DNA from: a bacterium
GTDB taxonomy: Bacteria > Planctomycetota > UBA11346
Reading direction: 5' to 3'
Assembly (NCBI GenBank): GCA_020047915.1
Contig: JAIFND010000039.1
Location: 1-60,740, forward strand
Length of the DNA stretch: 60,740 nucleotides
Below are positions 1 to 46,556 of the stretch, in pieces (position 1 is the first letter of the stretch; each line of letters opens with the position of its first letter). The notes under the pieces are model-generated. The model was not told the DNA's origin. It worked only from the letters and a program-made list of their open reading frames with translations, and searched no databases. The position numbers and the translations under genes were made by a program.

Positions 1-144
1 GGCGGAAGGCGGAAGGCGGAAGGCGGAAGAGTTGCTGAATCGAGTTGATGGGGGCCTGTCGTAGCGCCGACCCATTTTCGACTTCACGACTAGGCCGGCA
101 GTCCAATCCGCATTTCTTCCGCCTTCCGCCTTCCGACTTCCGCC
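1..144. repeat. Inverted tandem-heptamer element E1. (GGCGGAA)x4 arm at 1-29, 86-nt spacer, (TTCCGCC)-type arm at 116-144. The left arm may be cut by the window edge.
   Basis: Read directly: ggcggaaggcggaaggcggaaggcggaag ... cttccgccttccgccttccgacttccgcc. The arms are reverse-complementary with 1 mismatch. Confidence 0.85.
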
Positions 145-602
145 TTTCCAAGGTCAATGCCCTTAACGCAACGCCATTGGGTCCGGATCGCACACGCCGG
201 ATCGGTTGAGGCTTGGTCATGCAACTCGCCCAAACGTGCCGCGATGGCCAGATCGCCGAGTCTCAGCGCCGCGGTGATCCCGGCCCGCAGGGCGCGCACC
301 CGCCCAGAACTCGCCGTCGGCATGGCAGGCTCGTCTGCCATGCACGCACCAGGCCGGGACAGGGACGTATCCGCGGCAGACATACCCGATTCACATGTCG
401 GTTGATCATGCTCATTCACGTTCGCCATGGTGGGCAGCATCATCGCCTTCACGAGTCTCCGCCATGGGGTGAACTCCCCAGTCCCGCATGCAGGGATAAG
501 GGCCATGTCATTGATCAGGACCTGAGACCACCCCCGATCGGTCACCAATACGATGCAGCCGAGGCGCGTCAGGACGGCCGGCGGCTCGCACAAGCCCGCC
601 AT
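90..602 (-). CDS. Hypothetical protein; start uncertain. The 3' end runs into repeat E1.
   Basis: Open frame with strongly G/C-biased third positions in the stretch sampled (421-480). No recognisable motif. The C-terminal residues RRKAEE are a translation of the repeat arm. Confidence 0.3.
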   Translation of the reverse strand: MAGLCEPPAVLTRLGCIVLVTDRGWSQVLINDMALIPACGTGEFTPWRRLVKAMMLPTMANVNEHDQPTCESGMSAADTSLSRPGACMADEPAMPTASSGRVRALRAGITAALRLGDLAIAARLGELHDQASTDPACAIRTQWRCVKGIDLGKAEVGRRKAEEMRIGLPA

Positions 603-6533: not shown

Positions 6534-6554
6534 CCGTGATGCTGTCACCGAAAA

Positions 6555-6677
6555 GGCGGAAGGCGGAAGGCGGAAGGCGGAAGATCGGCACGCAGGCGAG
6601 TTGGAATGGGCATCAGGCAGGCACGCGCAGCGCGCAGCAATTCTTCCGCCTTCCGCCTTCCGCCTTCCGCCTTCCGG
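6555..6677. repeat. Inverted tandem-heptamer element E2. (GGCGGAA)x4 at 6555-6583, 59-nt spacer, (CTTCCGC)x5 at 6643-6677. Sits in the flgH-flgI intergenic gap.
   Basis: Read directly; four units pair perfectly. Confidence 0.9.
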
Positions 6678-7431: not shown

Positions 7432-7625
7432 CACACAGAGGACCAGAGCACCAGAGGTGAAGGCATGGCTGTGCACGATTTCACTGGTGCACCGGCATGA
7501 ATTTCAGCGCACCGTACAACGCCTCTTGCCTCTGATTCTTTTGGTGCCCTGTGTGACTACTTCTTCAATTGAAAACCACCACTTCGCAGCCCGATGCTTC
7601 CTCTGGTCCTCTGGTCCTCCTTGTG
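7432..7625. repeat. Inverted tandem-octamer element H1. Arms at 7432-7463 and 7597-7625 built from (NACCAGAG) units, with a 133-nt comparatively AT-rich spacer.
   Basis: cacacagaggaccagagcaccagaggtgaagg ... cttcctctggtcctctggtcctccttgtg. Confidence 0.85.
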
Positions 7626-7646
7626 AATACAATGCGAGGTAAGGGA

Positions 7647-9152
7647 TCATGCCGTGGCCGGCTGACCCAGGACCGTAATATAGACCACAGCCTGGTCGCG
7701 CGGGATGCCGAGCAGGTCGGCGGTGTGGTCGTCGAAGAAGCCGCCGATGCCGCTCGCCCCCAGACCTTCGCCCAGCGCAGCCAGGTTCATGCGCTGGCCG
7801 ATGACGCCCGCATCCAGGTGGAGATAGCGGTAGGTGCGGTCGCCCTGGGCGCGCACGCAGGCCTGCAGGTCGGCGGTGTGGAAGATCATCGCCCCGGCGT
7901 CGCCACCGAGATCCTGACCGAGGGCGATGAAGCGCGCCGCCTCGCGCGGGTCGCCCGGCCGCACCGGCCGCAGCTCGAGCTGGTGCGGAGCAAGGTAGTA
8001 CACGCCGGGCGCGACCCCCTCGACGCTGATGATGGCGATGAAGGTCGAGAGACTGCCGCGATCGAAGGAGGGCTGTTCGCCGAGCGCGACCTGCTCGGGC
8101 AGATAGGACGCGGCGAGGATGCGCGCCAGCGCATCGCGGCTGATCGGTCCGGGGTGGAAACGGCGGCAGCTGCGCCGGCGCAGGATGGTGCCGAGCTGGT
8201 CGCCAGCCAGCGGCACGGGGCCGGCGCAACCCGCTCCGCGCAGACGGTCGCCCGAGGCCCAGCCATGCGCCAGTTCCAGGGCGTCCGAGGCGACCTCGCC
8301 CTGCGCGACCAGGCGCGGCCGCACCTCGGGCAGCCGGCTGGCGCGATGCAGCAGATCGAGCGACGGAGCGCTGGCCGCATCGCTAGCCGGGCTGGGCAGG
8401 GCGGTCCACGATGGCCGCTCGGCCGGACCGGGGAGATTCAGCGCCAGCAGGGCGAGCACGCCTTCGTGCTCGCCTTCGAGGCGCAGGGCGTCATCGGCAC
8501 GCTGGTCGCAGAACGCGGCAGTGGCATGCAGGCGCAGGCCGAGGGCATGCGCGACCAGGCCGGCGTTGCCGATGAGGTGGCCGATGTCGAGCAGGATGCG
8601 GCGGTAGGCGCGTTCCTGGTAGCGCCAGCGACTGCGCTGCCACACCCCGGTGACGGCGGCGATCACCGGCGCAGCGGCCAGGGCGGCGTTGCCATAGGCG
8701 GACGCGGTCAAGGCGGCATGCAGATCGCCACCATCGGCCAGCAGCACCAGGCGGTGCCGCCGCGGATCATAGCCGTACAGTCCGGGTTCGAGGCCGGGCC
8801 AGTCGCGTACCGCGAGATACATCTCTGCCGGGTACAATCCGCCTGCCGACGGGGCGGCACGCAGCAGCAGGTCGCGGCCCGGATTGCGCATCACGGCGGT
8901 GACGCCGTAGGTGAAGTAGATCCAACGCGACAGCGCCGCCAGGGTCCGCCCCTGCCACGCCCCGGTCGCCTGCGGCGGCTTGCCGGTGAAGGGGTTGGGG
9001 TCGAGGGGCAGGAGATGGGCGAGTTCAACCCCGCCATCGCTGTGGTATTCCTTCCACGCCAGCGGCTGGCTGTCCCAATCGAGTCCGGGATGCCCGCCGA
9101 TCGTCTCGGGGGCGTACTTGGTCGATTGGTGGTAGCGTATAGCCAGGCTCAT
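7647..9152 (-). CDS. SagB-type dehydrogenase / tandem nitroreductase-fold protein.
   Basis: N-terminus MSLAIRYHQSTKY and PSAGGLYP motifs. Two nitroreductase-like halves over 501 aa. Confidence 0.7.
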   Translation of the reverse strand: MSLAIRYHQSTKYAPETIGGHPGLDWDSQPLAWKEYHSDGGVELAHLLPLDPNPFTGKPPQATGAWQGRTLAALSRWIYFTYGVTAVMRNPGRDLLLRAAPSAGGLYPAEMYLAVRDWPGLEPGLYGYDPRRHRLVLLADGGDLHAALTASAYGNAALAAAPVIAAVTGVWQRSRWRYQERAYRRILLDIGHLIGNAGLVAHALGLRLHATAAFCDQRADDALRLEGEHEGVLALLALNLPGPAERPSWTALPSPASDAASAPSLDLLHRASRLPEVRPRLVAQGEVASDALELAHGWASGDRLRGAGCAGPVPLAGDQLGTILRRRSCRRFHPGPISRDALARILAASYLPEQVALGEQPSFDRGSLSTFIAIISVEGVAPGVYYLAPHQLELRPVRPGDPREAARFIALGQDLGGDAGAMIFHTADLQACVRAQGDRTYRYLHLDAGVIGQRMNLAALGEGLGASGIGGFFDDHTADLLGIPRDQAVVYITVLGQPATA

Positions 9153-15135: not shown

Positions 15136-15138
15136 GCA

Positions 15139-15259
15139 GGAGCGCGGGCGCCCCCGCCCGACCGGACCGCGGGCGCCCTCGCCCGCGGCGCATGAGGCAG
15201 GGTCAACTGCTGCGGGCGGGGGCGCCCGCAGGCCGGTCGGGCGGGGGCGCCCGCGCTCC
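15139..15259. repeat. GC-rich nested inverted repeat. A perfect 27-bp outer arm pair (15139-15165 / 15233-15259) encloses a second imperfect copy of the same unit (15168-15187 / 15211-15230), with a 22-nt loop.
   Basis: ggagcgcgggcgcccccgcccgaccgg ... ccggtcgggcgggggcgcccgcgctcc. The unit GCGGGCGCCCCCGCCCG is repeated twice per arm. Confidence 0.85.
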
Positions 15260-15313
15260 GTCCGCAGCATGACGGTTGCCGTTTGGCATCCACACCCGCC
15301 CCCTCACGATCAC

Positions 15314-16618: not shown

Positions 16619-16624
16619 TTGGGG

Positions 16625-16754
16625 TCACACAGAGCCCCAGAGTGACCAGAGGGGAAAGTCTTTGCATGGTACATCGACATGCACCGCCCGGGTGAACCCG
16701 AGAAATCGAGCAAATCCTTGTCTTGACCTCTGGTGGCTCTGGTTCTCTGTGTGA
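16625..16754. repeat. Inverted tandem-octamer element H2. Arms at 16625-16652 and 16727-16754 match at 24 of 28 positions, with a 74-nt spacer. Lies between convergent pfk and the rhodanese gene.
   Basis: tcacacagagccccagagtgaccagagg ... cctctggtggctctggttctctgtgtga. Shares the TCACACAGAG...CCAGAGG arm design with H1. Confidence 0.85.
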
Positions 16755-16775
16755 AATGCTGGGTTTAGGTTCACC

Positions 16776-17327
16776 TCATGCCTTCGCCGTCAGCACGCAG
16801 CATGAACCGCCACTCTTGGCCGAGCGGTTCCACGGCAGGCGGGCGACCAGCAGGGCGAGCGGGCACAGGTCGGTGATGCCGGCCATCAGCAGACCGCCAC
16901 CGAAGAACGCGCTGATCACGGCGAACCAGGGATCGACGGTCAGGGCGAGGATCGCGCCGGTCAGCACCCCGGCTCCGATGATGCTGCGCACCTGGCGCTC
17001 GACGCCGAAGACCGCGCCGCCCGAGCCGTCGATCGGCAGTCCGGCCGCCTTCCAGGCATTGGTCCCGCCACTGATGTCGATCAGTTCGCCGAGGCCGGCG
17101 GTAGCCAGCTTCTCGCACGCTTGACGGCTGCGCACCCCGCTTTGGCAGATCACATGCACCGGGCCGCTGCCGAGACTGGCAGCGTCCAACGCATCAAGGG
17201 GCATGCTGCGGGCGCCAGGAACATGGCCGGCCGCGTATTCAGCCGGGGTGCGGACATCGATGAGGTTCAGCGGACCGGCCTTGAGGCGGTCGCTCAGGGC
17301 GCGCGGGTCAAGTGTGGTGATGGGCAT
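16776..17327 (-). CDS. Rhodanese-domain inner-membrane protein (YgaP-like: rhodanese plus DUF2892).
   Basis: LIDVRTPAEYAAGHVPGA, active-site loop VICQSGVRS, and a C-terminal two-helix membrane domain. Confidence 0.8.
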   Translation of the reverse strand: MPITTLDPRALSDRLKAGPLNLIDVRTPAEYAAGHVPGARSMPLDALDAASLGSGPVHVICQSGVRSRQACEKLATAGLGELIDISGGTNAWKAAGLPIDGSGGAVFGVERQVRSIIGAGVLTGAILALTVDPWFAVISAFFGGGLLMAGITDLCPLALLVARLPWNRSAKSGGSCCVLTAKA

Positions 17328-17409
17328 GGCCGCGAGGGATAGCACGCGGATGTGTCAGGTATACCCGCACCAGCCATTCCTTCGGCACGCCCTGCCGCAT
17401 CATGCCGCC

Positions 17410-19311
17410 ATGCGCGTCCTGCTCGCCCTGCTCCTGCTGACCAGCCTGATCGCCGAGGAATCCTTCTTCTCGCGCCACGGCGTCACCGTCTCGGTGGAAC
17501 TTGAGACCACGGCCGATGGCCCGGTGATCGCGGCGACCTTCCAGCCGCGGCCGCAGGATCCTCCGCTGCATCTCTACGGCATGGGCCTGACACCGGGCGG
17601 GGCCGGCGTGCCGACCAACCTGCGCCTGGCGCCCGGATCGCCGGTGCGCGCGCGCGGTCCGCTGCGCGACGACCAGCCGGTGCACGACCTCGATGGCCTG
17701 CCGGTCTATCCCGATGGCACGGCGGTGACGCTGCGTCTGCCGATCAGCGCGCCGGCGGGCAGCGGCGAGATTCCGGTCGAGGTGCGCGTCTCCTACATGG
17801 CTTGCACCGCCGAGGCCTGCCTGGTGCCGGTCAACGATGCACCGTTGATCCTGCGCGTCCCGGGCGACGGATCTGCACCCGCGGCCGTAGGGGGCGGCGC
17901 CGCGCTCGACGATATCCGCGCCGTGATCCGCGAGGAGTTGGCCGGGACGCAGGCCAAGCTGCGCGCCGAACTGCGGGCCGAGCTGGCGGCTGCCGCAGAG
18001 CCACATGCGATCCGTTGGCGCCGTCCCGCCGACCGCGCCGCCGCCGAGGCGCTGATCGCCGAGGCGCACGCCGCCGGCAAGGCGGCGATCCTCGACTTCA
18101 CCGGCCCGAGCTGCATCAACTGCCTGCTCATGGCCAAGACGGTGTTCCGGGTGCCGGCGGTGGCGCGGGCGTGGAACAGCGGCGTGCCGATCGAGATCGA
18201 CACCGACCCGCCGCACGAGGATCTCGCCGCCTGGCAGCAGGAGCGCTTCGCCACCCAGAACCGCCCGCTCTACATCCGCATCGCACCGGATGGCAGCGAG
18301 GTGCGCTGGGACCGCGTCTTCGATCCTTCCGACACCGCCACCCTCGAACGCCTCGTCGCCCTCCTCGAACGCGGCGAGAGCGCCGCCGGCGATGCGACCG
18401 GCACCGGCTCGGGGTGGGGCGAGTTCCTGCTGCTCGCCGTGCTCGGCGGGCTGTTCACCTTGGTGATGCCGTGCACCTACCCGATGATCCCCTTCACCGT
18501 CAACATGTTCACCAAGCAGGCGGCAGGCGGAGCGAAGCTGCTGCCCCTCGCGGCCGCCTATGCCCTGGGCATCATCGCCTGCTTCGTCGGCCTGGGCGTG
18601 CTGATCACCGGCGTCTTCGGCGCCTCGCTCACCACCCTGGCCGGCCACCCGATCACCAACCTGCTGATCGGCGTCCTCTTCGTCGTGCTCGGCCTGTCGC
18701 TGCTCGGCGCCTGGTTCCTCACCCCGCCGAGCTGGCTGCAGAACGCGGCCGGCGGCGCGCGCGGTGGTTACTTCGGCGCGCTGCTGATGGGCCTGACCTT
18801 CGCCATCACTGCCTTCACCTGCACGGCCCCCTTCGCCGGGGCGGTGCTGGCGGCCGGCGTCGCGCACGGCGCGTGGGGATCGGCCGTGCTCGGCATGGCG
18901 ATCTACAGCGGCACCATCGCCCTGCCCTTCTTCCTGCTCGCCCTCGCTCCCGGCTGGCTGGCGCGACTGCCGCGCGCCGGGGCATGGATGAATGAGTTCA
19001 AGGTGGTGGGCGGGCTGGTTGAGATCGCTGCCGCCTGCAAGTTCCTCGCCATCTGCGACCATGCCTGGGGCTGGGGTATCATCGGACGCACCTTCTGCCT
19101 GGCGAGCTGGAGCGCCATCGCCCTGGCCATCGCCGCCTATGTCCTCGGCTGGTGGCGCCACGACGGCGATGAGAGCATCAAGCACGCCGGCCTCGGCCGG
19201 CTGAGCGCCGCCATCATCTGCGCCGCCCTGGCGATCTGGCTGGCGTCAGGCTTGGCCGGCAACCATCTGGGATTGATCGAGAGCTTCTTCCCGGGTGATG
19301 CAGCGCCGTAG
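17410..19311 (+). CDS. DsbD-like thiol:disulfide interchange protein with permuted domain order (alpha-like, thioredoxin-like, then transmembrane).
   Basis: Signal peptide MRVLLALLLLTSLIA, alpha-like YMACTAEACLVP, Trx-like ILDFTGPSCINC, and a DsbD/CcdA TM core with LVMPCTYPM and AFTCTAPF. Confidence 0.8.
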   Translation: MRVLLALLLLTSLIAEESFFSRHGVTVSVELETTADGPVIAATFQPRPQDPPLHLYGMGLTPGGAGVPTNLRLAPGSPVRARGPLRDDQPVHDLDGLPVYPDGTAVTLRLPISAPAGSGEIPVEVRVSYMACTAEACLVPVNDAPLILRVPGDGSAPAAVGGGAALDDIRAVIREELAGTQAKLRAELRAELAAAAEPHAIRWRRPADRAAAEALIAEAHAAGKAAILDFTGPSCINCLLMAKTVFRVPAVARAWNSGVPIEIDTDPPHEDLAAWQQERFATQNRPLYIRIAPDGSEVRWDRVFDPSDTATLERLVALLERGESAAGDATGTGSGWGEFLLLAVLGGLFTLVMPCTYPMIPFTVNMFTKQAAGGAKLLPLAAAYALGIIACFVGLGVLITGVFGASLTTLAGHPITNLLIGVLFVVLGLSLLGAWFLTPPSWLQNAAGGARGGYFGALLMGLTFAITAFTCTAPFAGAVLAAGVAHGAWGSAVLGMAIYSGTIALPFFLLALAPGWLARLPRAGAWMNEFKVVGGLVEIAAACKFLAICDHAWGWGIIGRTFCLASWSAIALAIAAYVLGWWRHDGDESIKHAGLGRLSAAIICAALAIWLASGLAGNHLGLIESFFPGDAAP

Positions 19312-19373
19312 TTCAGGGGCTTCGCCCAATGGTGTTCAGCCAGGACTCGCGCAGGACTAGGTGTGCCATTGAT

Positions 19374-19438
19374 GTGGCATGGGCGTCCCGCCCATGTGCA
19401 TGAGCCTCGTCGATCACGGGCGAGACGCCCGTGCCACA
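19374..19438. repeat. Two adjacent small GC hairpins (catgggcg-tcc-cgcccatg and cacgggcg-aga-cgcccgtg). The second (19407-19438) is repeated exactly at 32975-33006.
   Basis: A 32-nt identity, tcgtcgatcacgggcgagacgcccgtgccaca, occurs at both loci. Confidence 0.8.
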
Positions 19439-19498
19439 CGCGGCAGGTCGTGTTTAGCTGAACAGGCGGCGGGCCCTGGACCCGGCCGCAAACGACAC

Positions 19499-19528
19499 GG
19501 CGGTGGTCCGCTTGCGCGAACCACCGCC
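19499..19528 (-). terminator. Hairpin downstream of the selenoprotein gene; possible terminator.
   Basis: ggcggtggt-N12-accaccgcc. On the minus strand it is followed by gtgtcgtttg. Confidence 0.4.
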
Positions 19529-19550
19529 ATTGTGCGTCACGGGAAGCAGG

Positions 19551-20486
19551 CTAATTGCTGCCGGCGAGGACCCCGTACACGGTGTCGGGCATGGCCTTGG
19601 CCAACGCGGCCATGCCGTCGCGGCCAGCGGCCTGTTCCTTGGGTTTGCTTGAACCGGTCAGGCGCTTGCACTCCATATAGACCGAACGCGCTTTCAGCTC
19701 CTTCTTGATGACCGGGTCCTTGCCGAGTTCCGACAGGCGGCTCTTCAAGGCCTTGAGATCAAGACCGTCGAAGCGGCGGGACAGCCCCTCCAGCTTCTCG
19801 TAGGCCGCGAAACCTTCGCCTGCGGCAGCCAGGCCAGCCTCCAGCGCAGTGGTCGCCGAGGTGATCACCAGTTGGGACTGCTCGCCGACCGCGTTCTTGC
19901 GCTTGGCGGCACCGACCAATTCCTTGAGCGCCCCGGGCACCAGCCCGCGGTTGGCCTTCCACCACACTTCGATGACCCCGGCCTCGGTCAGGCCCTCGAC
20001 CGGGATGGCATGGGTGCCACCGGTCAGTCCCTTGAGGAAGGGCAGGGGCTTGCCCTTGCCGTAGGTTTCAGCCGTGCTGACGGTCTGCAGCGTGCCGTCA
20101 GGCTTCAGCAGTTCCGTCCACATCGTGGTCTTCTTGCCGACCCCGTTGGGATTGTTCGGGTCGTAGGCGCCGAGCGTGCGCTCGATGCCCTTCGACTTCA
20201 GCAGATCGGCCATCGCCTGCGGCTCGAAGTGCGGCGAGGTGACGATCACCCACACCGGCACCTTCTCCTTCTCAATCCAGTCCACCGCTTCTTTGACGCC
20301 CTCACCGAGGGACGCGACGCAGTGGGGTCAATGACCCGAGAATTGGTAGAGGAGGACGTGCTGTCCGGCGAAATCGGCGCTCGTACGCGAGACGCCGTCG
20401 CTGAACTGGAGCCTGGCGATCGGGTCGGCGGCGGCTAAGAAGCCGGCGACGACCAGCGCGAGACAGAGTCGGGCGAATATGGCCAT
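19551..20486 (-). CDS. Secreted thioredoxin-fold (TlpA/redoxin-like) selenoprotein with an in-frame TGA (Sec) at 20328-20330 in a U-P-H-C redox motif. Merges track ORFs 20328..20852 (C-terminal part) and 19551..20285.
   Basis: Reads MAIFARLCLALVVAGFLAAA...GQHVLLYQFSGH-TGA-PHCVASLGEGVKEAVDWIEKEK... in one frame. WCxxC-type context, SECIS-like hairpin 15-34 nt after the TGA, and selD/selA adjacent. Confidence 0.7.
20296..20315 (-). promoter_or_regulatory. Candidate bacterial SECIS stem-loop for the TGA at 20328-20330.
   Basis: mRNA is UGA-N12-GCG[U]CCCUC-GGU-GAGGGCGU: an 8-bp stem with a bulged U on the 5' side and G/U in the apical loop, at a spacing close to the E. coli fdhF SECIS. Confidence 0.5.
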
Positions 20487-20640
20487 ATATCGATTATGGA
20501 CAGCACGCCGACCAAGACAAGAAACAACCCGCCTCGTATCGCACGCCCGTGCGGGTAGCGCCAGACGGGGATTTGAGCCGCATGCCGATCGACTAGGGTC
20601 CGCCATGCCCGCCATCAATCTGCCCCGCCGCCGTGAAGTC

Positions 20641-22356
20641 ATGAAGCGCTCGATCGCGCTCGGCCACTGCATCTGCGATCCGCGCCTGGGCTGCCCCTGT
20701 CCGACCCTGAAGAACGAGGACCGCTGCCCCTGCGCCGGCGAAACCGCGCCGGAACCACCCGCCGATGCCGTGATCCGGCTGACCCAGAGCGTCAAGGCGG
20801 CGGGCTGCGGCGCCAAGATCGGCAAGGCGCAACTCGCGAGCCTGCTCGGCAACCTGCCGGTGATCGATGATCCGCGCGTCCTGATCGGGTCGGCGGCCGG
20901 CGACGATGCCGCCGTGCTGCGCCTGGACGGGTCGCGCGATGACCTGGTGCAGACCGTCGATGTGCTCTCGCCGCCGGTCGATGATCCCTACAGCTACGGC
21001 CGCATCGCCGCCGCCAACGCCCTGTCCGACATCTGGGCGATGGGCGGCCGCGCGGAATGCTCCCTGTCGGTGGTCGGTTGGCCGATGCACGACCTACCGC
21101 CCAGCGCGCTGGCCGAGGTGCTGCGCGGCGGGGCCGAGGCGATGCGCGAGGCCGGCGTGCCGGTGGTCGGCGGGCAAAGCGTCAACGCCGCCGAACCCTT
21201 CGCCGGCTACAGCGTCACCGGCACCGTGGCCGCCGGGCGCGCGATCCGCAATCAGGGCGCGCAACCGGGCGATGTGCTGGTGCTGAGCAAGGCGCTGGGC
21301 GGCGGGTTCCTGGGGTTCGCGCAGCAGATCGGCCTACTCGCGCCCGAGCACCTCGCCGCCTGGACGGCGCAGATGGCGGCCTTCAACCGCGCCGCCGGCG
21401 AGGCCATGGCGCGGCATGGCGCGCATGCCGGCACCGATGTGACCGGCTTCGCCCTGCTCGGCCATGCGATCGAGATCGCCATGCGCTCGCCGTGCGATCT
21501 GGTCATCGATTTCGATCGCCTGCCGATCCATCCCGGCGTCCAGGACCTGGCCCGCCGCGAGGTGTGGCCGGGAGCCCTGGAGCGCAACCGCGAGGCAGTC
21601 GCGCCCGAGCGCCTTGACCTCGCCGGTCTGAGCCCCGCCCAGATCGCCGTCCTGTTCTGCCCCGAGACCTCGGGCGGCATCCTCGCCTTCCTGCCCGCCG
21701 ATGCGGTGTTTGGCTACCGTGCCGACTGCGCCACCGCCGGGGTGGCGACCAGCGTGATCGGCGAGGTCGTGGCCGGCACCGGGCGCATCCGCGTCACCAC
21801 CAGCGATGCCGCCGCGTGGTCGCCGCTGGGCATCCCGAAATCTAAGGCTCCGGCGCCGACCGCCGCCAAGCTGGCGGCCATGGAAAAAGCTGGAGGCTGG
21901 AAGCTGGAGGCTGGAAGCGTGGCCATCCAGGACCTCGCTACCATCGCAGATCCTGCACATCGCCTCGCCACTGCGATCGCCGCCGCTCCTCCAGCCTCCA
22001 GCCCCCAGCCTCCAGCCCTCCTCCCCGAGACACCGTGCTGCGCCGAACCGCCCGCCACGGCCAACGCCATGGCCCCGCTGCCTACCGTCAGCGGCCTGCC
22101 GCCCGCCGCCGCTGCAGCGGCCTTCACCGCCTACATGCAGGCGGTGACCGCGCCGGGCGCCCTCGACGCGCGGACCAAGAAGCTGATCGCGCTGGCCCTG
22201 TCGGTGGCCGGGCGCTGCGAACCGTGCGTCGGCATCAACGCCGAGGGCGCGCAGAAGGCCGGCGCCGACCAGGCGCAGATCGCCGAAGCAGTGGCCCTGG
22301 GCATCGCCTTCGGTGGCGCCCCGACCGCGATGTTCTACAACGGCCTGCGGAAATAA
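20641..22356 (+). CDS. selD: Selenophosphate synthetase SelD (Cys form) with a Cys-rich N-terminal extension, fused through a repeat-derived linker to a C-terminal AhpD/carboxymuconolactone-decarboxylase-like CxxC domain. Alternative start at 20605.
   Basis: IRLTQSVKAAGCGAKIG, DDAAV, FGRIAAANALSDIWAMGG-type motifs. No stop until 22354-22356. C-terminus ALSVAGRCEPCVGINAEGAQKAG is an AhpD-like core. Confidence 0.85.
   Translation: MKRSIALGHCICDPRLGCPCPTLKNEDRCPCAGETAPEPPADAVIRLTQSVKAAGCGAKIGKAQLASLLGNLPVIDDPRVLIGSAAGDDAAVLRLDGSRDDLVQTVDVLSPPVDDPYSYGRIAAANALSDIWAMGGRAECSLSVVGWPMHDLPPSALAEVLRGGAEAMREAGVPVVGGQSVNAAEPFAGYSVTGTVAAGRAIRNQGAQPGDVLVLSKALGGGFLGFAQQIGLLAPEHLAAWTAQMAAFNRAAGEAMARHGAHAGTDVTGFALLGHAIEIAMRSPCDLVIDFDRLPIHPGVQDLARREVWPGALERNREAVAPERLDLAGLSPAQIAVLFCPETSGGILAFLPADAVFGYRADCATAGVATSVIGEVVAGTGRIRVTTSDAAAWSPLGIPKSKAPAPTAAKLAAMEKAGGWKLEAGSVAIQDLATIADPAHRLATAIAAAPPASSPQPPALLPETPCCAEPPATANAMAPLPTVSGLPPAAAAAAFTAYMQAVTAPGALDARTKKLIALALSVAGRCEPCVGINAEGAQKAGADQAQIAEAVALGIAFGGAPTAMFYNGLRK
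21889..22024. repeat. Inverted tandem-heptamer element F1. (GCTGGAR)x4 at 21889-21918, 66-nt spacer, (CYCCAGC)-type arm at 21985-22024. Lies inside the selD ORF.
   Basis: gctggaggctggaagctggaggctggaagc ... gctcctccagcctccagcccccagcctccagccctcctcc. Translated in frame as AGGWKLEAGS ... APPASSPQPPALLP. Confidence 0.85.
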
Positions 22357-22360
22357 CCGC

Positions 22361-23734
22361 ATGGACACCGACCTGCTGCGCCGCATCCCAGCCGCCGGCA
22401 CACTGCTTAACCGACCGCCGGTGCAGGCCTTGGTGGCCGCGCACGGCCACGGCCTGGTGCGCCACTGCCTGCGCCTGCTGCTCGACGAGCTGCGCGCCGC
22501 CGCCAAGGCCGGTTCAACACCGCCCGCCGCCGAGGAGCTGGAGCGCGAACTCACCGCGCGCGTCCGGCGCATCGCCGTGCCCGCGCTGCGCCGCGTGGTC
22601 AACGCCAGCGGCGTGCTGCTGCACACTGGCCTGGGCCGCAGCCCATTGTGCGATGAGGCGGTGGCGGCGCTGACCGCAGCCGCCGGCTACAGCGCGGTGC
22701 AGGCCAGCCTGGGCAGCGGCGACCGCAGCCTGCGCGAAGAACGTATCGAGCGCATGCTGTGTGAGCTGACTGGCTGCGAAGCGGCGACCGTGGTCAACAA
22801 CAACGCCGCCGCGACCATGCTGATGCTCGCGACGCTCGGAGGCGGCCGCGAGGTGGTGGTGTCGCGCGGCCATCTCGTCGAGATCGGCGGCAGCTACCGC
22901 ATGCCCGATGTCATGGCCATGAGCGGCTGCACCCTGGTCGAGGTCGGCTGCACCAACCGCACCCACCTGCGCGACTACGAACGCGCGATCACCCCGCAGA
23001 CCGCCGCGCTGCTGCATGTCCACACCAGCAACTACCGCATCCGCGGCTTTGCCGGCACGCCCGGCATTGCCGAGCTGGCGGGCCTGGCCAAGGCCAAGGG
23101 CGTGCTGGCCCTCGACGACATCGGCAGCGGCGCGCTGGTGCCGCTCTCCACCGTCGGGGTCGAGGACGAACCGCTGGTCGCAGCGAGCATCGCAGCCGGG
23201 GCCGAAATCGCCTGCTTCAGCGGCGACAAGCTGATCGGCGGCCCGCAGGCCGGCATCCTGGTCGGCAGCCGCGCCGCCATCACCCGCCTGCGCGCCAACC
23301 CCTACGCGCGCATGTTCCGCGTCTGCAAGCTGACCCTCGCCGCCCTCGAGGCGACCCTGGTGCACTACCTCAACGGCACCTGGCGCGAGGCCATCCCGTT
23401 CTGGGCTATGGCCTCGCGGCCGGCCAGCGAGATCGCTGCCGACGCTGCGGCCCTGGCGGCGCGCTGCGCCGACATCTCCGGCCTGCGGGCGCGGGTAGTC
23501 GAAACGGTGGCCTTCGTCGGCAGCGGTTCGGCGCCCGACGAGGGCATCGCCAGCGCCGGACTGCGCCTGAGCGCCGTCGGCATCGAGGCCGGCGAGCTGG
23601 CCAGACGCCTGCGCACCGGCGAACCAAGCGTTTTCGTGCGCCTTGAGGACGGTGCCTGCATCGCCGACTGCCGCACCCTGCGCCCGGGTGACGCCGAGCA
23701 GTTGCTGGCGGCTCTGCGTCGGGCGATGGGGTGA
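22361..23734 (+). CDS. selA: L-seryl-tRNA(Sec) selenium transferase SelA.
   Basis: N-terminus MDTDLLRRIPAAGTLLNRP, body VNNNAAATMLML...FSGDKLIGGPQAGILVG (PLP Lys region). Starts 5 nt after the selD stop. Confidence 0.9.
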   Translation: MDTDLLRRIPAAGTLLNRPPVQALVAAHGHGLVRHCLRLLLDELRAAAKAGSTPPAAEELERELTARVRRIAVPALRRVVNASGVLLHTGLGRSPLCDEAVAALTAAAGYSAVQASLGSGDRSLREERIERMLCELTGCEAATVVNNNAAATMLMLATLGGGREVVVSRGHLVEIGGSYRMPDVMAMSGCTLVEVGCTNRTHLRDYERAITPQTAALLHVHTSNYRIRGFAGTPGIAELAGLAKAKGVLALDDIGSGALVPLSTVGVEDEPLVAASIAAGAEIACFSGDKLIGGPQAGILVGSRAAITRLRANPYARMFRVCKLTLAALEATLVHYLNGTWREAIPFWAMASRPASEIAADAAALAARCADISGLRARVVETVAFVGSGSAPDEGIASAGLRLSAVGIEAGELARRLRTGEPSVFVRLEDGACIADCRTLRPGDAEQLLAALRRAMG

Positions 23735-23737
23735 TGG

Positions 23738-23829
23738 GCTGGAAGCTGGAAGCTGGAAGCTGGAAGCTGGAAGCATGATCCATCCACGGCTTCTCGTTCC
23801 TGTCGCCCCTCCAGCCTCCAGCCTCCAGC
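23738..23829. repeat. Inverted tandem-heptamer element F2. (GCTGGAA)x5 at 23738-23774, 33-nt spacer, (CCTCCAG)x3 at 23808-23829. Fills the convergent selA/pmbA gap.
   Basis: Read directly. Each unit carries an A-versus-G difference, so the pairing is uninterrupted (G-U) only in a minus-strand transcript. Confidence 0.88.
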
Positions 23830-23834
23830 GTCCC

Positions 23835-25205
23835 CTACACCGCCACCATAGCGTGCATACGCATCCACTCGGGGCCGTGCCAGCCGCCGACGGTGGCGAC
23901 TTCGCGGCTGAACGAGGCGCCGGTCATCGCCTCGCGCAGGACGCCCGACACGCTGCCGCCCTTCACCGCGATGCGTGAGCCATCGGGGGCGTTCCACCAG
24001 CCGAAGCGGATCTCGCCGGAGAAGGCGCCGGTGTCGTGGCGCGGATGGAACTCGCTGAAGCGCACCACCTCCAGCGAGCCGTGGCGCAGTTCGGCGGCGC
24101 CATGCCGGCCGGGCGGGGCGACCAGGGTGGCGAGCTGCCCGCGCGGCTGGCGCTCAAGCACCTGCATCCAACGCCCGGCACCGTGCAGCGCGGTCAACAC
24201 GCCGTCCTGGATGAAGTCCTGGCGGCAGGCGGCGTAGCCGTGCTCGTCGAAGCGGTAGGCGGCGAGGCTGGGGACGATCGCATCGCTGCTGAGATTCAGG
24301 CGGTCGCCGCCGCACGGCTCGACCACCGGGGCGTCGAGGGTCAGCGCGGCGATGTTGCGCACATGCTGGGCGGCATCGGCATGCGCGGCGTACCAGCCCA
24401 TCAGCCCGGCCAGATACTCGCCGCCGATCAGCACCGGCAGGCGGCCGGCTGGCGGCGGACCCGCCGCAGCACCGTCGCGCAGGCAGTCGGCGGCGTCGGC
24501 GACGCGCTCGGCCAGGCGCAACTCGCCCAGTGAGGCTGCCTCACAGCGGTCGTAGTATTCGCTCTCCTCGCCGTTGGCGCCGCGATGCAGCAGCACGAAC
24601 TCGGCGTAGCAGCGCGTGCGCCGCTCGGACAGGTCGAGGCCACGGTGGTTGACCAGGCGACGGTCGTCGATGCTGGCGAACAGCTCCAGCGCACTCGGTC
24701 GCGTCCACGGTGCGGCATGCACCGCATCGCCGAACAGGGCGATGTTGCCATGCAGCGCCTGGCCGGGATCGCGCGTGATCTGCTGGTCGGCGAGGAAGTC
24801 GGTGGCGGTGGCCATCTGCGCCCCGGTAGCGGCGCCACCGGCGACGTTGCAGGCGACCACGCCACCGCGCCAACCCGCCGCAGCGCCATTGTCACCCGGA
24901 CCGGGCAGCTTCCACGCGCGGTTGGGCGCCGACTGCGCGCTGGTCACCGCGGCGTCCAGCAGCACGCGCAGGTCGGGGCCGCCATGCACCGGCGTGACGG
25001 TGAAGCCAGCCTCGCCCTGCGTCCCATCCGGGTTCGGCGGCAGGGCTATCCACACCTGCCAGCGCACCGACGAGGCCTCGCGCTCGCTCTCGGGCTTGAG
25101 GAAAGTGAGATAACGCTCGAAGCGGCGGCTGCGCCGTTCGGTCACCTGCCACTGGGCGATCTCCGAGCGGCCAGCGAGGACATTCTGGATGAGGCGCAGG
25201 TCCAT
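23835..25205 (-). CDS. pmbA: PmbA/TldE-family metalloprotease partner.
   Basis: TldD/PmbA-family length and position. The start ATG shares one base with the tldD TGA (TGATG at 25203-25207). Confidence 0.78.
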   Translation of the reverse strand: MDLRLIQNVLAGRSEIAQWQVTERRSRRFERYLTFLKPESEREASSVRWQVWIALPPNPDGTQGEAGFTVTPVHGGPDLRVLLDAAVTSAQSAPNRAWKLPGPGDNGAAAGWRGGVVACNVAGGAATGAQMATATDFLADQQITRDPGQALHGNIALFGDAVHAAPWTRPSALELFASIDDRRLVNHRGLDLSERRTRCYAEFVLLHRGANGEESEYYDRCEAASLGELRLAERVADAADCLRDGAAAGPPPAGRLPVLIGGEYLAGLMGWYAAHADAAQHVRNIAALTLDAPVVEPCGGDRLNLSSDAIVPSLAAYRFDEHGYAACRQDFIQDGVLTALHGAGRWMQVLERQPRGQLATLVAPPGRHGAAELRHGSLEVVRFSEFHPRHDTGAFSGEIRFGWWNAPDGSRIAVKGGSVSGVLREAMTGASFSREVATVGGWHGPEWMRMHAMVAV

Positions 25206-33062: not shown

Positions 33063-33394
33063 CCAGCGCGCCAGCGCTGGCGGCCGCCAGGGGCGCGGGC
33101 GGCATACAATCGGCGCAGCCGATGCCGCCCTGGTTTCCGAGCGCAGCGAGGAAACCAAGCCCCGCCCGTGGCCGAGGGGCAGGCCCCCGGTCGTCCGGGG
33201 GCCGTGGGGACGCAGTCCCCAAGCAGAAAAACCAGCGCGCCAGCGCTGGCGGCCGCCAGGGGCGCGGGGCGGATACAATGGGCGCTAGCCCATCCGCCCC
33301 TGGTTTCCGAGCGCAGCGAGGAAACCAAGCCCCGCCCGCGGCCGAGGGGCAGGCCCCCGGTCGTCCGGGGGCCGTGGGGACGCAGTCCCCAAGC
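33063..33394. repeat. Two tandem copies (33063-33224 and 33232-33394) of a ~162-nt multi-hairpin unit in the convergent panD / outer-membrane-protein gap.
   Basis: The units are near-identical except in one hairpin (33097-33130 versus 33266-33300), where both stems change in a compensatory way. Other hairpins are tggtttcc-N12-ggaaacca, ggcccccgg-tcgt-ccgggggcc and tgggga-cgcag-tcccca. Confidence 0.85.
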
Positions 33395-35845: not shown

Positions 35846-35983
35846 GTAGCTTAGAGCTTAGAGCTTTGAGCTTTGGGCTTTGAGCCCGAAGCGGTGCGTG
35901 ATTATTGGATTGCTGTGCAGCATAGGAAAAGTTCAGCGCAAAGTGAATGGTCTGCGGACTCTAAGCTCTAAGCTCTAAGCTTA
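35846..35983. repeat. Inverted tandem-heptamer element G1. (TAGAGCT/TTGAGCT)-type arm at 35846-35885, 72-nt AT-richer spacer, (CTAAGCT)x3 arm at 35958-35983 that overlaps the infB stop codon.
   Basis: gtagcttagagcttagagctttgagctttgggctttgagc ... actctaagctctaagctctaagctta. Confidence 0.88.
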
Positions 35984-40433: not shown

Positions 40434-40565
40434 CTGGATCGTCCTAGACGAAAAAAGCGTGAGCCGGAGGGCCCACGCTTCCGGTTTCCCGAAAGGTTGA
40501 GACGGCAGGAGGGTATCGTCTTTCGCGGGTGGTCAATGTGGATCCGGCGGGGCAGGGGGAGGGGA

Positions 40566-40712
40566 GGCGGAAGGCGGAAGGCGGAAGGCGGAAGAGTCGC
40601 TTGATGCGTGCGATCGGCATCAGTCCGGTTCACGGGCCAATGCTGCGCCCGGCGGATGGCGACGATCGCGCAACTTGGCAATTCTTCCGCCTTCCGCCTT
40701 CCTCCTTCCGCC
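40566..40712. repeat. Inverted tandem-heptamer element E3. (GGCGGAA)x4 at 40566-40594, 89-nt spacer, (TTCCKCC)x4 at 40684-40712. Lies between the RACo-like gene and nusA.
   Basis: Read directly. One unit carries a G-to-T change (cttcctcc). Confidence 0.9.
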
Positions 40713-40728
40713 TTTCGACCTGGGTGTG

Positions 40729-42216: not shown

Positions 42217-42242
42217 CAGCGATCCTCACCCGATGCAGGCAA

Positions 42243-42408
42243 GGCGGAAGGCGGAAGGCGGAAGGCGGAAGAGTTGCCAAGCCGGGACGATGGACGCTGT
42301 CCGCCTGGATCAGCCCACCGCCCGTTCGGACCCAGGGCGCACGCTAAAGCTGTATCCCCGAGCGCGCAGATCCGCATTTCTTCCGCCTTCCTCCTTCCGC
42401 CTTCCGCC
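42243..42408. repeat. Inverted tandem-heptamer element E4. (GGCGGAA)x4 at 42243-42271, 108-nt spacer, (TTCCKCC)x4 at 42380-42408. Lies between the DUF1638 gene and the RACo-like gene.
   Basis: Read directly. Shares the junction motifs gagttgc and atccgcatttcttcc with E1. Confidence 0.9.
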
Positions 42409-42427
42409 TTCGTCGGCCTGCCCGCCC

Positions 42428-46449: not shown

Positions 46450-46457
46450 ATCCGTGG

Positions 46458-46552
46458 GCTGGAGGCTGAAGGCTGGAGGCTGGAGGCTCCCAGCCACCCG
46501 CCGACAGGTCCCGCGGCCCCCAGCTTCCAGCCTCCAGCTTCCAGCCTCCAGC
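46458..46552. repeat. Inverted tandem-heptamer element F3. (GCTGRAG)x4 at 46458-46487, ~32-nt spacer, (CAGCYTC)-type arm at 46520-46552. Lies between a small ORF and sppA.
   Basis: gctggaggctgaaggctggaggctggaggc ... ccagcttccagcctccagcttccagcctccagc. Confidence 0.88.
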
Positions 46553-46556
46553 TTTC

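What the first reader, a model, noticed from the sequence alone, without database searches (positions are those of the whole stretch)
21889..22024. A heptamer-arm element is embedded in frame inside the selD reading frame and forms the linker of a SelD-AhpD fusion
The SelD catalytic region ends around 21800 (…GRIRVTTSD). The AhpD/CMD-like CxxC domain starts around 22070 and has its own possible Met (MAPLPTV). The ~100 codons between them are mostly element F1, translated as AGGWKLEAGS...APPASSPQPPALLP. No stop codon separates the two parts, so as sequenced the element is translated. One reading is that an element inserted between two adjacent genes and fused them. The other is that the fusion is older and the repeat evolved within a disordered linker. 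All left/right arm differences here are A-versus-G transitions. They give A-C mismatches in the sense mRNA, which would weaken the hairpin for the ribosome.
Basis: partly seen in the sequence, partly recalled or inferred. Interest (0 to 1): 0.65.

Follow-up and report, generated by a model that had tools for sequence, protein, structure and literature searches.

The report
Hairpin repeat translated inside SelD-AhpD linker
A 144-base copy of a dispersed hairpin repeat, whose arms are tandem 7-base units, sits in frame in the floppy linker of an old SelD-AhpD fusion protein of an uncultured planctomycete; it is a tolerated insertion, variable between strains, and did not create the fusion.

Summary
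Window 21881-22024 is an inverted repeat with (GCTGGAR)4 arms, translated without a stop inside one ORF (20605-22356). That ORF encodes a Cys-rich N-terminus, SelD, a linker and an AhpD/CMD CxxC domain. Two other assemblies carry identical DNA.

The element did not make the fusion. All 120 best homologues (41-91% identity; Planctomycetota and Bacillota names) have SelD plus CMD without it, and share an invariant CC motif just downstream.

The nearest strain (L001) and a lake-water contig have an unrelated, hairpin-free 63 nt in place of the 144 nt. Both alleles occur together in lake metagenomes.

F1 is one of eight heptamer-armed hairpins in the window. Its arm is 35/36 identical to an intergenic copy, and arm words are 10-20 times deeper than flanks in metagenomes. 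Four other copies are missing from relatives, where the genes abut.

The arms have no stop codon in any frame, and the net change is +27 codons in a low-confidence (pLDDT below 50) linker.

Elsewhere, GCTGGAR arrays lie in frame in HypF, HPr-EI, XdhC and PurL, between Pfam domains.

Verdict: a tolerated insertion like the Rickettsia palindromic elements, of the paired-heptamer-repeat kind seen in Xanthomonas. It is a new variant of a known kind and moderately interesting.

The parts
20605..22356 (+). selD-ahpD fusion ORF (583 aa; an upstream ATG at 20479 would give 625 aa)
   Evidence: The ORF is listed. Homologues begin at the equivalent of MPAINLPRRREVMKRS.
20641..20742 (+). Cys-rich N-terminal motif (HCxCD..CPC..CxCAGE)
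   Evidence: H21, C22, C24, C30, C32, C41, C43, A44, G45 and E46 are invariant in alignment A1.
20767..21795 (+). SelD (selenide, water dikinase) core
   Evidence: TIGR00476 scores 313.8 bits against a cut-off of 125. NF002098 covers residues 97-439 of the 625-aa reading. AIRS and AIRS_C also match. pLDDT is 80-98.
21820..22095 (+). Inter-domain linker, variable in length and sequence among homologues
   Evidence: A1 shows only gaps and unalignable residues here, apart from the CC motif. pLDDT block means are 27-50 for P0001 residues 431-510, and most of 411-539 is below 50.
21881..22024 (+). Element F1: the 144-nt block replaced by an unrelated 63 nt in the element-free allele; translated as (M)EKAGGWKLEAGSVAIQDLATIADPAHRLATAIAAAPPASSPQPPALLP
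   Evidence: Alignment with L001. An X8 contig joins 21880 to 22025 with 63 letters between.
21882..21923 (+). Left arm: GGAAAAA + GCTGGAG GCTGGAA GCTGGAG GCTGGAA + GCGTGGC
   Evidence: It is 35/36 identical to the left end of E8 read on the minus strand.
21924..21981 (+). Interior (loop) of F1, 58 nt. Among the family copies seen here, interiors range from 12 nt to about 70 nt (F1, measured between the heptamer arrays)
   Evidence: The four differences in the lake allele are all synonymous.
21982..22024 (+). Right arm: GCCGCTC + CTCCAGC CTCCAGC CCCCAGC CTCCAGC + CCTCCTCC
22036..22041 (+). Invariant Cys-Cys motif of the linker, 4 codons after the element
   Evidence: C478 and C479 are invariant in A1.
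22108..22332 (+). AhpD/CMD-like domain with CxxC (CEPC at 22216-22227)
   Evidence: PF02627 scores 55.3 bits against a cut-off of 23. TIGR00778 also matches. CEPC is located.
23736..23833 (+). E4: same family (GCTGGAA x5 ... CTCCAGC x3). It fills the whole spacer between the selA stop (23734) and the convergent pmbA-like stop (23835)
   Evidence: It is absent from L001, which has a different hairpin with arms that read as a 9-nt repeat at that place.
46455..46556 (-). E8: same family. It fills the spacer between the upstream gene's stop (46557) and the sppA start (46449)
   Evidence: It is absent from L127, where the two genes overlap.
1..146 (+). E1: GGCGGAA-armed hairpin (sister family), cut by the window start
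6553..6676 (+). E2: GGCGGAA-armed hairpin between an upstream gene (stop 6701) and flgI (start 6533)
35846..35983 (+). E5: AGCTTWG-armed hairpin between infB and rbfA. Its arm supplies the infB stop codon
   Evidence: It is absent from L126 and L127.
40562..40717 (+). E6: GGCGGAA-armed hairpin between the RACo-like gene and nusA. The insertion changes the RACo C-terminus (G* to GAGA*)
42239..42413 (+). E7: GGCGGAA-armed hairpin between the DUF1638 gene and the RACo-like gene. In relatives these two genes overlap (TGATG)

Best explanation
F1 is a copy of a family of small hairpin repeats with no transposase gene in this window. The stems of these repeats are tandem heptamers, (GCTGGAR)n paired with (YTCCAGC)n. 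The family is multi-copy in this uncultured Planctomycetota lineage.

Shown:
- The host gene already encoded one protein made of a Cys-rich N-terminus, SelD, a variable linker with a CC motif, and an AhpD-like CxxC domain.
- The 144-nt block lies in that linker. It sits where the element-free allele has an unrelated 63 nt, a net +81 nt or +27 codons.
- GCTGGAR and GGCGGAA arms have no stop codon in any of the six frames. F1 as a whole is open in 5 of 6 frames.
- The selD locus is polymorphic for the element in natural populations.
- Other copies of these hairpins fill the junctions between genes of operons.

Inferred:
- A length that is a multiple of three was enough to keep the AhpD domain in frame.
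- The 48 extra residues are translated as part of a predicted disordered tether.
- They are tolerated and close to neutral.
- The domain linker behaves like an intergenic spacer. Copies survive only at boundaries between functional units.
- Spread is by a MITE/REP-like copying process or by recombination between copies. The enzyme responsible is unknown.
For: Fusion older than the element:
- All 120 best homologues carry AIRS + AIRS_C + CMD.
- 14 of the 16 aligned sequences lack the element, and the CC motif and N-terminal Cys motif are invariant.

Dispersed family:
- The window holds 8 heptamer-armed hairpins.
- F1 and E8 arms are 35/36 identical, and F1 and E4 share subterminal sequence.
- Arm word depth is 217-241 against 12-18 for flanks in X1, and 10-22 times the flanks in lake runs. 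Other copies with interiors of 12-38 nt are seen.

Presence/absence:
- L001 and a 1065-nt X8 contig have 63 nt instead of the 144 nt.
- The L001 linker has no hairpin potential (z = +0.78).
- Both alleles occur in X6, X7 and X10.
- E5, E6 and E7 are absent from L126 (IF-2 97% identical). E5-E8 are absent from L127 (IF-2 89%). In these relatives infB-rbfA, DUF1638-RACo and the gene upstream of sppA-sppA abut or overlap; the RACo-nusA spacer is simply shorter.

Frame compatibility and tolerance:
- Stop-free arms, and 144 nt is a multiple of three.
- Three in-frame alleles exist: the window's, P0002 (6 codons shorter), and a lake allele.
- Linker block-mean pLDDT is 27-50.

Generality:
- GCTGGAR arrays lie in frame between Pfam domains in HypF (a full hairpin, -66 kcal/mol), an HPr-EI fusion, XdhC and PurL. 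They interrupt the ALAD domain in HemB and lie within the glycosyltransferase match in a GT1 protein.

No other signal:
- No terminator-like or promoter-like site falls inside the element.
- No Rfam family matches above threshold.
Against: - The event is not a clean insertion into an empty site. 144 nt stand where the other allele has an unrelated 63 nt, so the order of events is unresolved. It could be insertion plus deletion, two independent insertions at one point, or an allele swap by recombination.
- P0002 (about 91% identity) has the element, while the closer P0003 lacks it. This implies either loss or recombination.
- No target-site duplication could be defined at E5-E7, and the window has no transposase. 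The mobility mechanism is inferred only.
- In the lake allele all 4 interior differences are synonymous, and the 82 nt of arms have none. That hints at constraint rather than pure neutrality.
- No RNA or protein data show that the segment is actually translated.
Confidence: 0.75

Rival explanations
1. The element has been co-opted. One version is that the strong hairpin in the mRNA slows or tunes translation between the SelD and AhpD domains, or changes mRNA stability or processing. Another is that the extra 48 residues lengthen the tether in a useful way.
For: - The sense RNA folds at -81.3 kcal/mol.
- The element has stayed in frame in three diverged alleles.
- In the lake allele 4 of 4 interior changes are synonymous, and there are no changes in 82 nt of arms, while the next 60 nt of linker carry 4 non-synonymous and 1 synonymous change.
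- All three GCTGGAR copies in the window have the same orientation relative to local transcription.
Against: - The element-free allele coexists in the same lake populations and is the only allele seen in X8, so the element is dispensable.
- The interior is only about 65% conserved at the protein level between P0001 and P0002.
- Conservation of the arms is equally explained by gene conversion among copies.
- Four substitutions are a very small sample.
- No transcript data exist.
Confidence: 0.15
2. The repeat arose in place. Slippage would have expanded a heptamer in the low-complexity linker, and template switching would have built the complementary arm, with no input from other loci.
For: - The flank GCCAAGCTGGCGGCC (21867-21881) resembles the unit AAGCTGGAGGC.
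- Linkers of this protein vary in length among relatives.
- The L001 allele looks like a local duplication of KSKAPAP (read).
Against: - F1 and E8 are 35/36 identical over the outer GARAAA plus four units.
- The alternation of GAG and GAA units is the same in both.
- F1 shares subterminal sequence with E4.
- Many further copies with the same 31-mers exist in metagenomes.
Confidence: 0.05
3. The element inserted between two separate genes, selD and an ahpD-like gene, removed the stop codon and fused them.
For: No stop separates the two parts. A Met lies before the AhpD domain.
Against: - The fusion is present without the element in all but one (P0002) of the 120 best homologues.
- The element-free alleles L001 and X8 are also fused.
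- The Met is replaced by Pro in L001 and in the lake alleles.
Confidence: 0.02
4. Assembly artefact: a repeat-induced chimera or a collapsed repeat produced a false in-frame join.
For: Assembly graphs break at the arms. Logan contigs end at 21915-21920 and 21988.
Against: - The sequence is identical in three assemblies from different samples.
- Single contigs span the whole element in X5 (468 nt), and in X6 and X10 (237 nt).
- P0002 carries a diverged copy at the same place.
Confidence: 0.01

Closest known systems
Paired inverted heptameric repeats (GGGAATC)n of Xanthomonas campestris and X. axonopodis (Rehm et al. 2015, PMC4692102)
   Same: - Tandem 7-nt units, most often four per array.
- 70-75 cases per genome where two arrays lie close together in convergent orientation on opposite strands.
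- 89-93% are intergenic and lie close to the 3' end of the upstream ORF.
- 7-11% overlap ORFs.
- They are not associated with IS elements.
   Different: - The unit sequence differs and has no G3 tract, so the G-quadruplex idea does not carry over.
- 83% of the Xanthomonas repeats are kept in the same gene context between two species. Here, copies are present or absent between strains with ~97% identical IF-2.
- A full hairpin translated inside a domain linker was not described there.
Rickettsia palindromic elements (RPE; Ogata et al. 2000, as reviewed in PMC10969869)
   Same: A small palindromic dispersed repeat inserted in frame into unrelated housekeeping genes, translated as an extra peptide, and compatible with the protein's fold and function.
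   Different: - No sequence relationship and a different phylum.
- RPEs are ~150 bp with a conserved encoded peptide. Here only the arms are conserved and the interior varies from 12 to about 70 nt.
- In this window 1 of 8 copies is intragenic, whereas nearly half of RPEs are.
MITEs, REP/BIME and ERIC-type small palindromic repeats
   Same: Short (about 100-175 nt), multi-copy, inverted-repeat ends, placed at gene junctions within operons, present or absent between strains, and with no coding capacity of their own.
   Different: - No target-site duplication could be defined.
- No cognate transposase or RAYT gene lies in the window.
- The arms are internally tandem-repetitive rather than unique terminal inverted repeats.
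- There is no GTAG-type REP head.
Cyanobacterial STRR heptamers and TAACTGA direct repeats of Beggiatoaceae (PMC4679880; cited in PMC4692102)
   Same: Abundant intergenic tandem heptanucleotide arrays of 2-6 or more units, with function unknown.
   Different: Those are mostly direct, unpaired arrays with different units. Here the arrays are paired into hairpins.
Known SelD fusion proteins (Ndh-SelD, NifS-SelD; PMC2398784)
   Same: SelD fused to a redox or sulfur/selenium-handling partner that has conserved Cys motifs.
   Different: - The partner here is a C-terminal AhpD/CMD CxxC domain, joined by a CC-bearing linker, with an added Cys-rich N-terminus.
- The two selenium papers read for it do not mention this architecture.

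Membership tests
Paired inverted heptameric SSR (Xanthomonas GGGAATC type) | Tandem arrays of a 7-nt unit, typically about 4 units | tested here: met
   Arrays of 3.9 and 4.3 units in F1, and 3.3-5.4 units across the 16 arrays of the eight elements.
Paired inverted heptameric SSR (Xanthomonas GGGAATC type) | Two arrays close together on opposite strands (convergent), able to form a stem-loop | tested here: met
   Fold z-scores are -7.2 and -8.35.
Paired inverted heptameric SSR (Xanthomonas GGGAATC type) | G3+ tract in every unit (potential to form a G-quadruplex) | tested here: not met
   The units GCTGGAR, GGCGGAA and AGCTTWG have at most GG.
MITE | Terminal inverted repeats, small size, many copies | tested here: met
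MITE | Target-site duplication flanking the insertion | tested here: inconclusive
   Compared with empty sites in L126 and L127. E7 shows only TGA duplicated, E6 shows CCGG plus 7 extra nt, E5 replaces 8 nt, and F1 replaces 63 nt.
MITE | Insertion polymorphism with empty sites in relatives | tested here: met
   E5-E8 are absent from L126 and/or L127. F1 and E4 are absent from L001.
MITE | A parent element or transposase whose ends match | not testable with these tools
   No transposase lies in the window, and the rest of the genome is not available. One lead: TIGR02436 genes are bracketed by GCTGGAR arrays in other metagenomes.
REP/BIME with RAYT | A 20-40 nt imperfect palindrome with a conserved 5' tetranucleotide head, plus a RAYT (Y1 transposase) gene | tested here: not met
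   The arms are 28-40 nt tandem heptamers with no common head. No Y1 transposase was found among the window ORFs scanned.
Rickettsia palindromic elements | Palindromic repeat inserted in frame in ORFs and translated | tested here: met
   This is a match in behaviour only.
Rickettsia palindromic elements | Sequence membership in one of the RPE families, with a conserved encoded peptide | not tested
   No RPE sequence was compared. The interior of these elements is not conserved among copies, the organism is a planctomycete, and no Rfam family matches.
Intrinsic terminator | GC-rich hairpin followed by a T run | tested here: not met
   No terminator-like site in 20300-24000. CCCGAGACACC follows the stem.
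SelD (TIGR00476) | Score above the curated cut-off, and an active-site Cys/Sec-x-x-Lys loop | tested here: met
   313.8 bits against 125. In GCGAKIGK, C68 and K71 are invariant.
AhpD/CMD (PF02627, TIGR00778) | Score above the cut-off, and a CxxC motif | tested here: met
   55.3 bits against 23, and 35.8 against 27.8. In CEPC, C538 and C541 are invariant.

The most novel reading that the evidence does not exclude
Heptamer-armed hairpins are an undescribed class of mobile or rapidly copied element. They settle at boundaries between functional units, meaning operon gene junctions and inter-domain linkers. In this way they repeatedly add translated segments to multi-domain proteins in many bacteria (SelD-AhpD, HypF, HPr-EI, XdhC, PurL).

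Their spread could be tied to either of two things. One is the TIGR02436 four-helix-bundle (Avd / 23S-IVS-protein-like) genes, which are bracketed by the same arrays in 3 of 120 metagenome loci and lie next to an array in 2 more. The other is recombination at the Chi-like octamer GCTGGAGG that each unit junction creates.
Probability: 0.2. Interest if true: 0.7.

Novelty: new variant of a known kind. Interest (0 to 1): 0.45.

Why it matters
- It is a clean natural example of how selfish hairpin repeats lengthen protein linkers without harm. Both alleles are still segregating in lake populations, so the cost or benefit can be measured directly.
- Paired heptamer-repeat hairpins had been noticed in Xanthomonas but never shown to move. 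Here they differ in presence or absence between close strains and can fill whole operon junctions, in one case (E5) even supplying the upstream gene's stop codon.
- It is a practical warning for annotation. The element does not mark a gene fusion, a frameshift or a misassembly.
- It also draws attention to a widespread SelD-AhpD fusion with a Cys-rich N-terminus and a CC motif. The two selenium papers read here do not mention it.

Tried and rejected
- A protein-pattern scan of species genomes gave one irrelevant Chitinophagaceae hit. The organism has no close representative there.
- The same scan of metagenome contigs found nothing.
- DNA for P0002 could not be fetched. Its allele is known only as protein.
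- No RNA run holds the gene, so transcription and translation could not be tested.
- Rfam gave only matches to animal and viral miRNA-precursor families, far below their thresholds (45 bits against 90). These are generic hairpin matches.
- I tested whether F1's interior is the old linker, with arms added on either side. MAFFT pairs the 63 nt of L001 with it at only about 50% identity and one shared 8-mer. Flanks in selD's 3' half are ~97-99% identical and the loci ~95% overall. Rejected.
- I looked for a general rule on which strand gets G-U and which gets A-C mismatches across all 11 hairpins. There is none. It holds only within the GCTGGAR family.
- I looked for target-site duplications at three empty-site comparisons. 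None is convincing.
- Viral contigs hold only 3 matches to the arm pattern, so the element is not phage-borne.
- The L111 pair looked intragenic. Its codon-position GC pattern shows an antisense ORF, so I treated it as intergenic.
Full report
**What is there**

The + strand ORF that ends at 22356 is uninterrupted from 20479. Homologues begin at the Met at 20605, which gives 583 aa. Pfam and NCBIfam place SelD (TIGR00476, 313.8 bits against a cut-off of 125; AIRS and AIRS_C) on residues 97-439 of the 625-aa reading. They place a CMD/AhpD domain on residues 544-618 (PF02627, 55.3 bits against 23).

Between the two domains lies an inverted repeat. Its arms are 21889-21923 and 21982-22016: 35 nt, 86% complementary, 58 nt apart. 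Each arm is about four tandem heptamers, GCTGGAR on the left and YYCCAGC on the right.

A three-unit pattern occurs 16 times in the window against 0.01 expected. The segment folds far better than shuffled sequence: sense RNA -81.3 kcal/mol, z = -7.2; antisense -102.1, z = -8.35; DNA z = -6.6.

The same DNA, base for base, is in two other assemblies from different samples, L003 and L004. Single run contigs span the whole element in X5, X6 and X10. The observation and the reading frame are therefore sound.

**The fusion is old and the element is not its cause**

A search of 5.8 billion proteins returned 120 best hits at 41-91% identity. The few named ones are Planctomycetota, Pirellulaceae and Bacillota MAGs. 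All 120 carry AIRS + AIRS_C + CMD in one chain of 487-583 aa.

In a 16-sequence alignment three features are invariant: the Cys-rich N-terminal motif, the SelD core, and a Cys-Cys pair (C478, C479; window 22036-22041) four codons after the element. The stretch where the element lies is gaps in every sequence except P0001 and P0002. The Met of 'MAPLPTV' is Pro in the nearest strain and in the lake alleles, so it is not a start codon.

The two selenium papers I read describe Ndh-SelD and NifS-SelD fusions but not this architecture.

**Presence and absence of the element**

The closest relative, P0003 (locus L001), is about 95% identical overall and ~97-99% identical in selD's 3' half. It is identical up to 21880 and again from 22025. 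In between it has 63 unrelated nt where the window has 144, and that 63 nt has no hairpin potential (z = +0.78). The difference is 81 nt, or 27 codons.

P0002 is about 91% identical and has the element with the same left junction (…AAKLAAMEKAGGWKLEAGS…), but its interior is 6 codons shorter and diverged.

In lake-water metagenomes:
- A 1065-nt X8 contig carries only the element-free join ('skips 144, 63 letters between').
- X6, X7 and X10 carry both alleles.

The locus is thus polymorphic in nature, and at least three element-bearing alleles keep the frame. The order of events is not resolved. It could be insertion with deletion, two insertions at one point, or an allele exchange. P0002, the more distant relative, has the element while the closer P0003 lacks it.

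**F1 is a member of a dispersed family**

The window holds eight hairpins with heptamer arms:
- GGCGGAA family: E1 (1-146), E2 (6553-6676), E6 (40562-40717), E7 (42239-42413).
- GCTGGAR family: F1, E4 (23736-23833), E8 (46455-46556).
- AGCTTWG family: E5 (35846-35983).

It also holds three other long hairpins with quasi-repetitive arms.

F1's left end, GAAAAAGCTGGAGGCTGGAAGCTGGAGGCTGGAAGC, matches E8 read on the minus strand at 35 of 36 positions. F1 and E4 share subterminal sequence. Interiors differ in length and sequence.

In metagenome X1 the arm words reach depth 217-241 against 12-18 for the flanks. In lake runs the ratio is 10-22. Other copies with interiors of 12-38 nt are seen joined to the same arms.

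All other copies in the window are intergenic. The apparent ORFs across E2 and E8 start upstream of the true starts of flgI and sppA.

**Evidence that copies come and go**

IF-2 placed the organism in Planctomycetota, with 91% identity to a 'Planctomycetes bacterium' MAG. It also gave two related contigs. L126 (IF-2 97% identical, 11.5 kb) and L127 (IF-2 89%, 23 kb) have no heptamer array and no long hairpin at all. At the sites of the window's elements:
- E5: the genes abut. infB and rbfA are 9 nt apart in L126.
- E7: the genes overlap as TGATG.
- E8: the genes overlap in L127.
- E6: RACo and nusA are separated by a spacer about 100 nt long in both relatives, against 295 nt in the window.

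In the window E4, E5 and E8 make up the whole spacer. E5's arm supplies the infB stop codon, and E6 changes the last residues of the RACo-like protein.

No clear target-site duplication emerges. The window has no transposase. One caveat: arm words are still about 10 times deeper than flanks in X8, whose selD allele is element-free. Other genomes or loci in that sample therefore carry copies.

**Why the insertion is tolerated**

GCTGGAG, GCTGGAA, GCTGGGG and GGCGGAA arrays have no stop codon in any of the six frames. F1 as a whole is open in five of six frames, and its length is a multiple of three. Roughly a quarter to a third of random insertions of such an element into an ORF would therefore keep the frame. 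That estimate is my inference.

An AlphaFold model built on the 16-sequence alignment has pLDDT 80-98 for SelD. Block means are 27-50 for residues 431-510, which include the element-coded residues 426-474. This is consistent with a disordered tether. The alignment is shallow, and the AhpD domain itself is also modelled poorly.

No terminator-like or promoter-like site lies within the element. No Rfam family matches above threshold.

**The A-versus-G asymmetry**

Within the heptamer part of the arms all three differences are A on the left against G on the reverse complement of the right arm. Over the extended arms the count is six of eight. In the sense RNA these give A-C mismatches. In the antisense RNA they give G-U pairs, and that fold is 21 kcal/mol stronger.

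The same polarity is found in intergenic E4 (3/3) and E8 (3/4). It was therefore inherited with the element, not selected in selD. All three GCTGGAR copies have the same orientation relative to the neighbouring genes. So do E2, E6 and E7 of the GGCGGAA family. These numbers are small. Both a transcript-level role and strand-specific insertion would explain them.

**A hint of constraint**

The lake element-bearing allele differs from the window at 21927, 21942, 21948 and 21981. All four are synonymous third-position changes. Its 82 nt of arms have no difference. Just downstream in the linker, 22064, 22069, 22070 and 22075 change residues. X7 adds one non-synonymous change, P450T.

With four sites this is only suggestive. 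It keeps the 'co-opted' rival alive at about 0.15. Against that rival, the interior is about 65% identical in protein between P0001 and P0002, and the element-free allele persists.

**Generality**

- 22 loci have an inverted partner array within 500 nt, half in each topology.
- Ten arrays lie in frame in real proteins. Nine have Pfam matches, on both sides of the array in at least HypF, HPr-EI, XdhC and PurL:
  - HypF, between the zinc fingers and the YrdC domain, as a full hairpin of -66 kcal/mol.
  - An HPr-EI fusion, in the linker.
  - XdhC, in the linker.
  - PurL.
  - HemB.
  - A GT1 glycosyltransferase.
  - Wzy, YfhO/Polysacc_synt and PMT-like membrane proteins.
  - One 565-aa protein (L097) with no Pfam match.

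The selD case is therefore one instance of a recurring outcome.

**Comparison with what is known**

The nearest described kind is the GGGAATC heptamer repeat of Xanthomonas. There are about 186 arrays per genome, mostly of four units. 70-75 occur as convergent pairs, 89-93% are intergenic and close to the upstream ORF, and 7-11% overlap ORFs (PMC4692102). Those repeats were discussed as G-quadruplex formers, and 83% keep their gene context between two species. Here the units cannot form G4 structures, and copies differ between strains.

The behaviour, in-frame translation of a palindromic selfish repeat in a housekeeping gene, is that of the Rickettsia palindromic elements and of some intragenic MITE and ERIC copies (PMC10969869). 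The resemblance is functional only; there is no sequence relationship. A literature search for the arm sequences returned only unrelated hits from animal-cell and mouse studies.

**Verdict**

The feature is a tolerated insertion, still segregating, of a heptamer-armed hairpin repeat in the disordered linker of an ancient SelD-AhpD fusion.

It is a new variant of a known kind and of moderate interest. Its main value is as a tractable example, and as a pointer to an understudied class of repeat.

Noticed in passing
window 20605-22356; alignment A1: The host protein belongs to a widespread family with a fixed architecture: a Cys-rich N-terminus (HCxCD..CPC..CxCAGE), SelD, a linker with an invariant CC, and an AhpD-like CxxC domain. 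All 120 best hits have it. The two selenium papers I read list only Ndh-SelD and NifS-SelD fusions.
   Followed up: partly
window 35846-35983, 40562-40717, 42239-42413, 46455-46556 versus L126 and L127: Four heptamer-armed hairpins fill operon gene junctions. E5-E7 are absent from a strain with 97% identical IF-2, and E5-E8 from a species with 89% identical IF-2. E5 supplies the infB stop codon and E6 rewrites the RACo-like C-terminus.
   Followed up: yes
L054 16-520, L015 337-845, L049 2801-3328, L027 5012-5493, L060 2829-3521: In five of 120 metagenome loci, a TIGR02436 'four helix bundle protein' gene (the 23S rRNA IVS-protein / Avd-like family) lies next to GCTGGAR arrays. In L054, L015 and L027 it is bracketed as (YTCCAGC)n - ORF - (GCTGGAR)n. 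The L027 copy is frameshifted. It may be a cargo-bearing relative of the hairpins.
   Followed up: partly
L026 235-360, L064 2651-2685, L059 1064-1105, L076 8020-8110, L106 912-939, L072 327-354: GCTGGAR heptamer arrays are translated in frame in HypF, an HPr-EI fusion, XdhC, PurL, HemB and a GT1 glycosyltransferase from unrelated metagenomes. In the first four they lie between Pfam domains. In the coding copies one arm is often decayed.
   Followed up: partly
window 21870-21877 and every unit junction of the GCTGGAG arrays: GCTGGAGG, formed at each unit junction, and GCTGGCGG, 3 nt before the insertion junction, are two of the five candidate Chi motifs reported for Proteobacteria. G(G/C)TGGAGG is a Haemophilus Chi (PMC8022716). 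L054's arm even contains GCTGGTGG. This is a resemblance only, and the other two heptamer families do not share it.
   Followed up: no
window 21927, 21942, 21948, 21981 (lake allele in X6, X7, X10): All four differences in the element's interior are synonymous third-position changes. The 82 nt of arms show none. The linker just downstream changes four residues.
   Followed up: partly
L001 about 8060-8170 (downstream of selA): Where the window has E4, the related strain has a different hairpin whose arms read as a 9-nt repeat (ACGGAGGGC-like), folding at -74 kcal/mol, z = -5.3. In the more distant L005 the same place holds tRNA-Sec (5941-6034).
   Followed up: partly
window 33063-33394; L001 insertion opposite window ~19560: A 170-nt unit is repeated twice in tandem at 95% identity. 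A related ~177-nt block is inserted in L001 between the DsbD-like gene and the 244-aa gene, where the window lacks it. This is a second family of repeats that is polymorphic between strains.
   Followed up: no
window 16623-16756, 15137-15261, 7430-7627: Three further long hairpins with quasi-repetitive arms. H2 lies between convergent pfk and a rhodanese gene, and shows only one mismatch with L001 across the hairpin (two in the ~180 nt displayed), where the background identity is ~95%. H1 has 51-nt arms and folds at -134 kcal/mol. H3 has CCAGAG-type 8-mer arms.
   Followed up: no
window 16776-23734: A cluster related to selenium or sulfur handling: a YgaP-like rhodanese, a DsbD/TsoB-like membrane protein (17203-19311), a conserved 244-aa gene and a 52-aa gene with no Pfam family, selD-ahpD, and selA. 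The order is the same in L001, L003 and L004, and partly in L005.
   Followed up: no
window 51811-59149: Three consecutive secretin-family genes of 845, 753 and 848 aa (GspD / PilQ / Amuc_1098-like), following a pilM-like gene.
   Followed up: no
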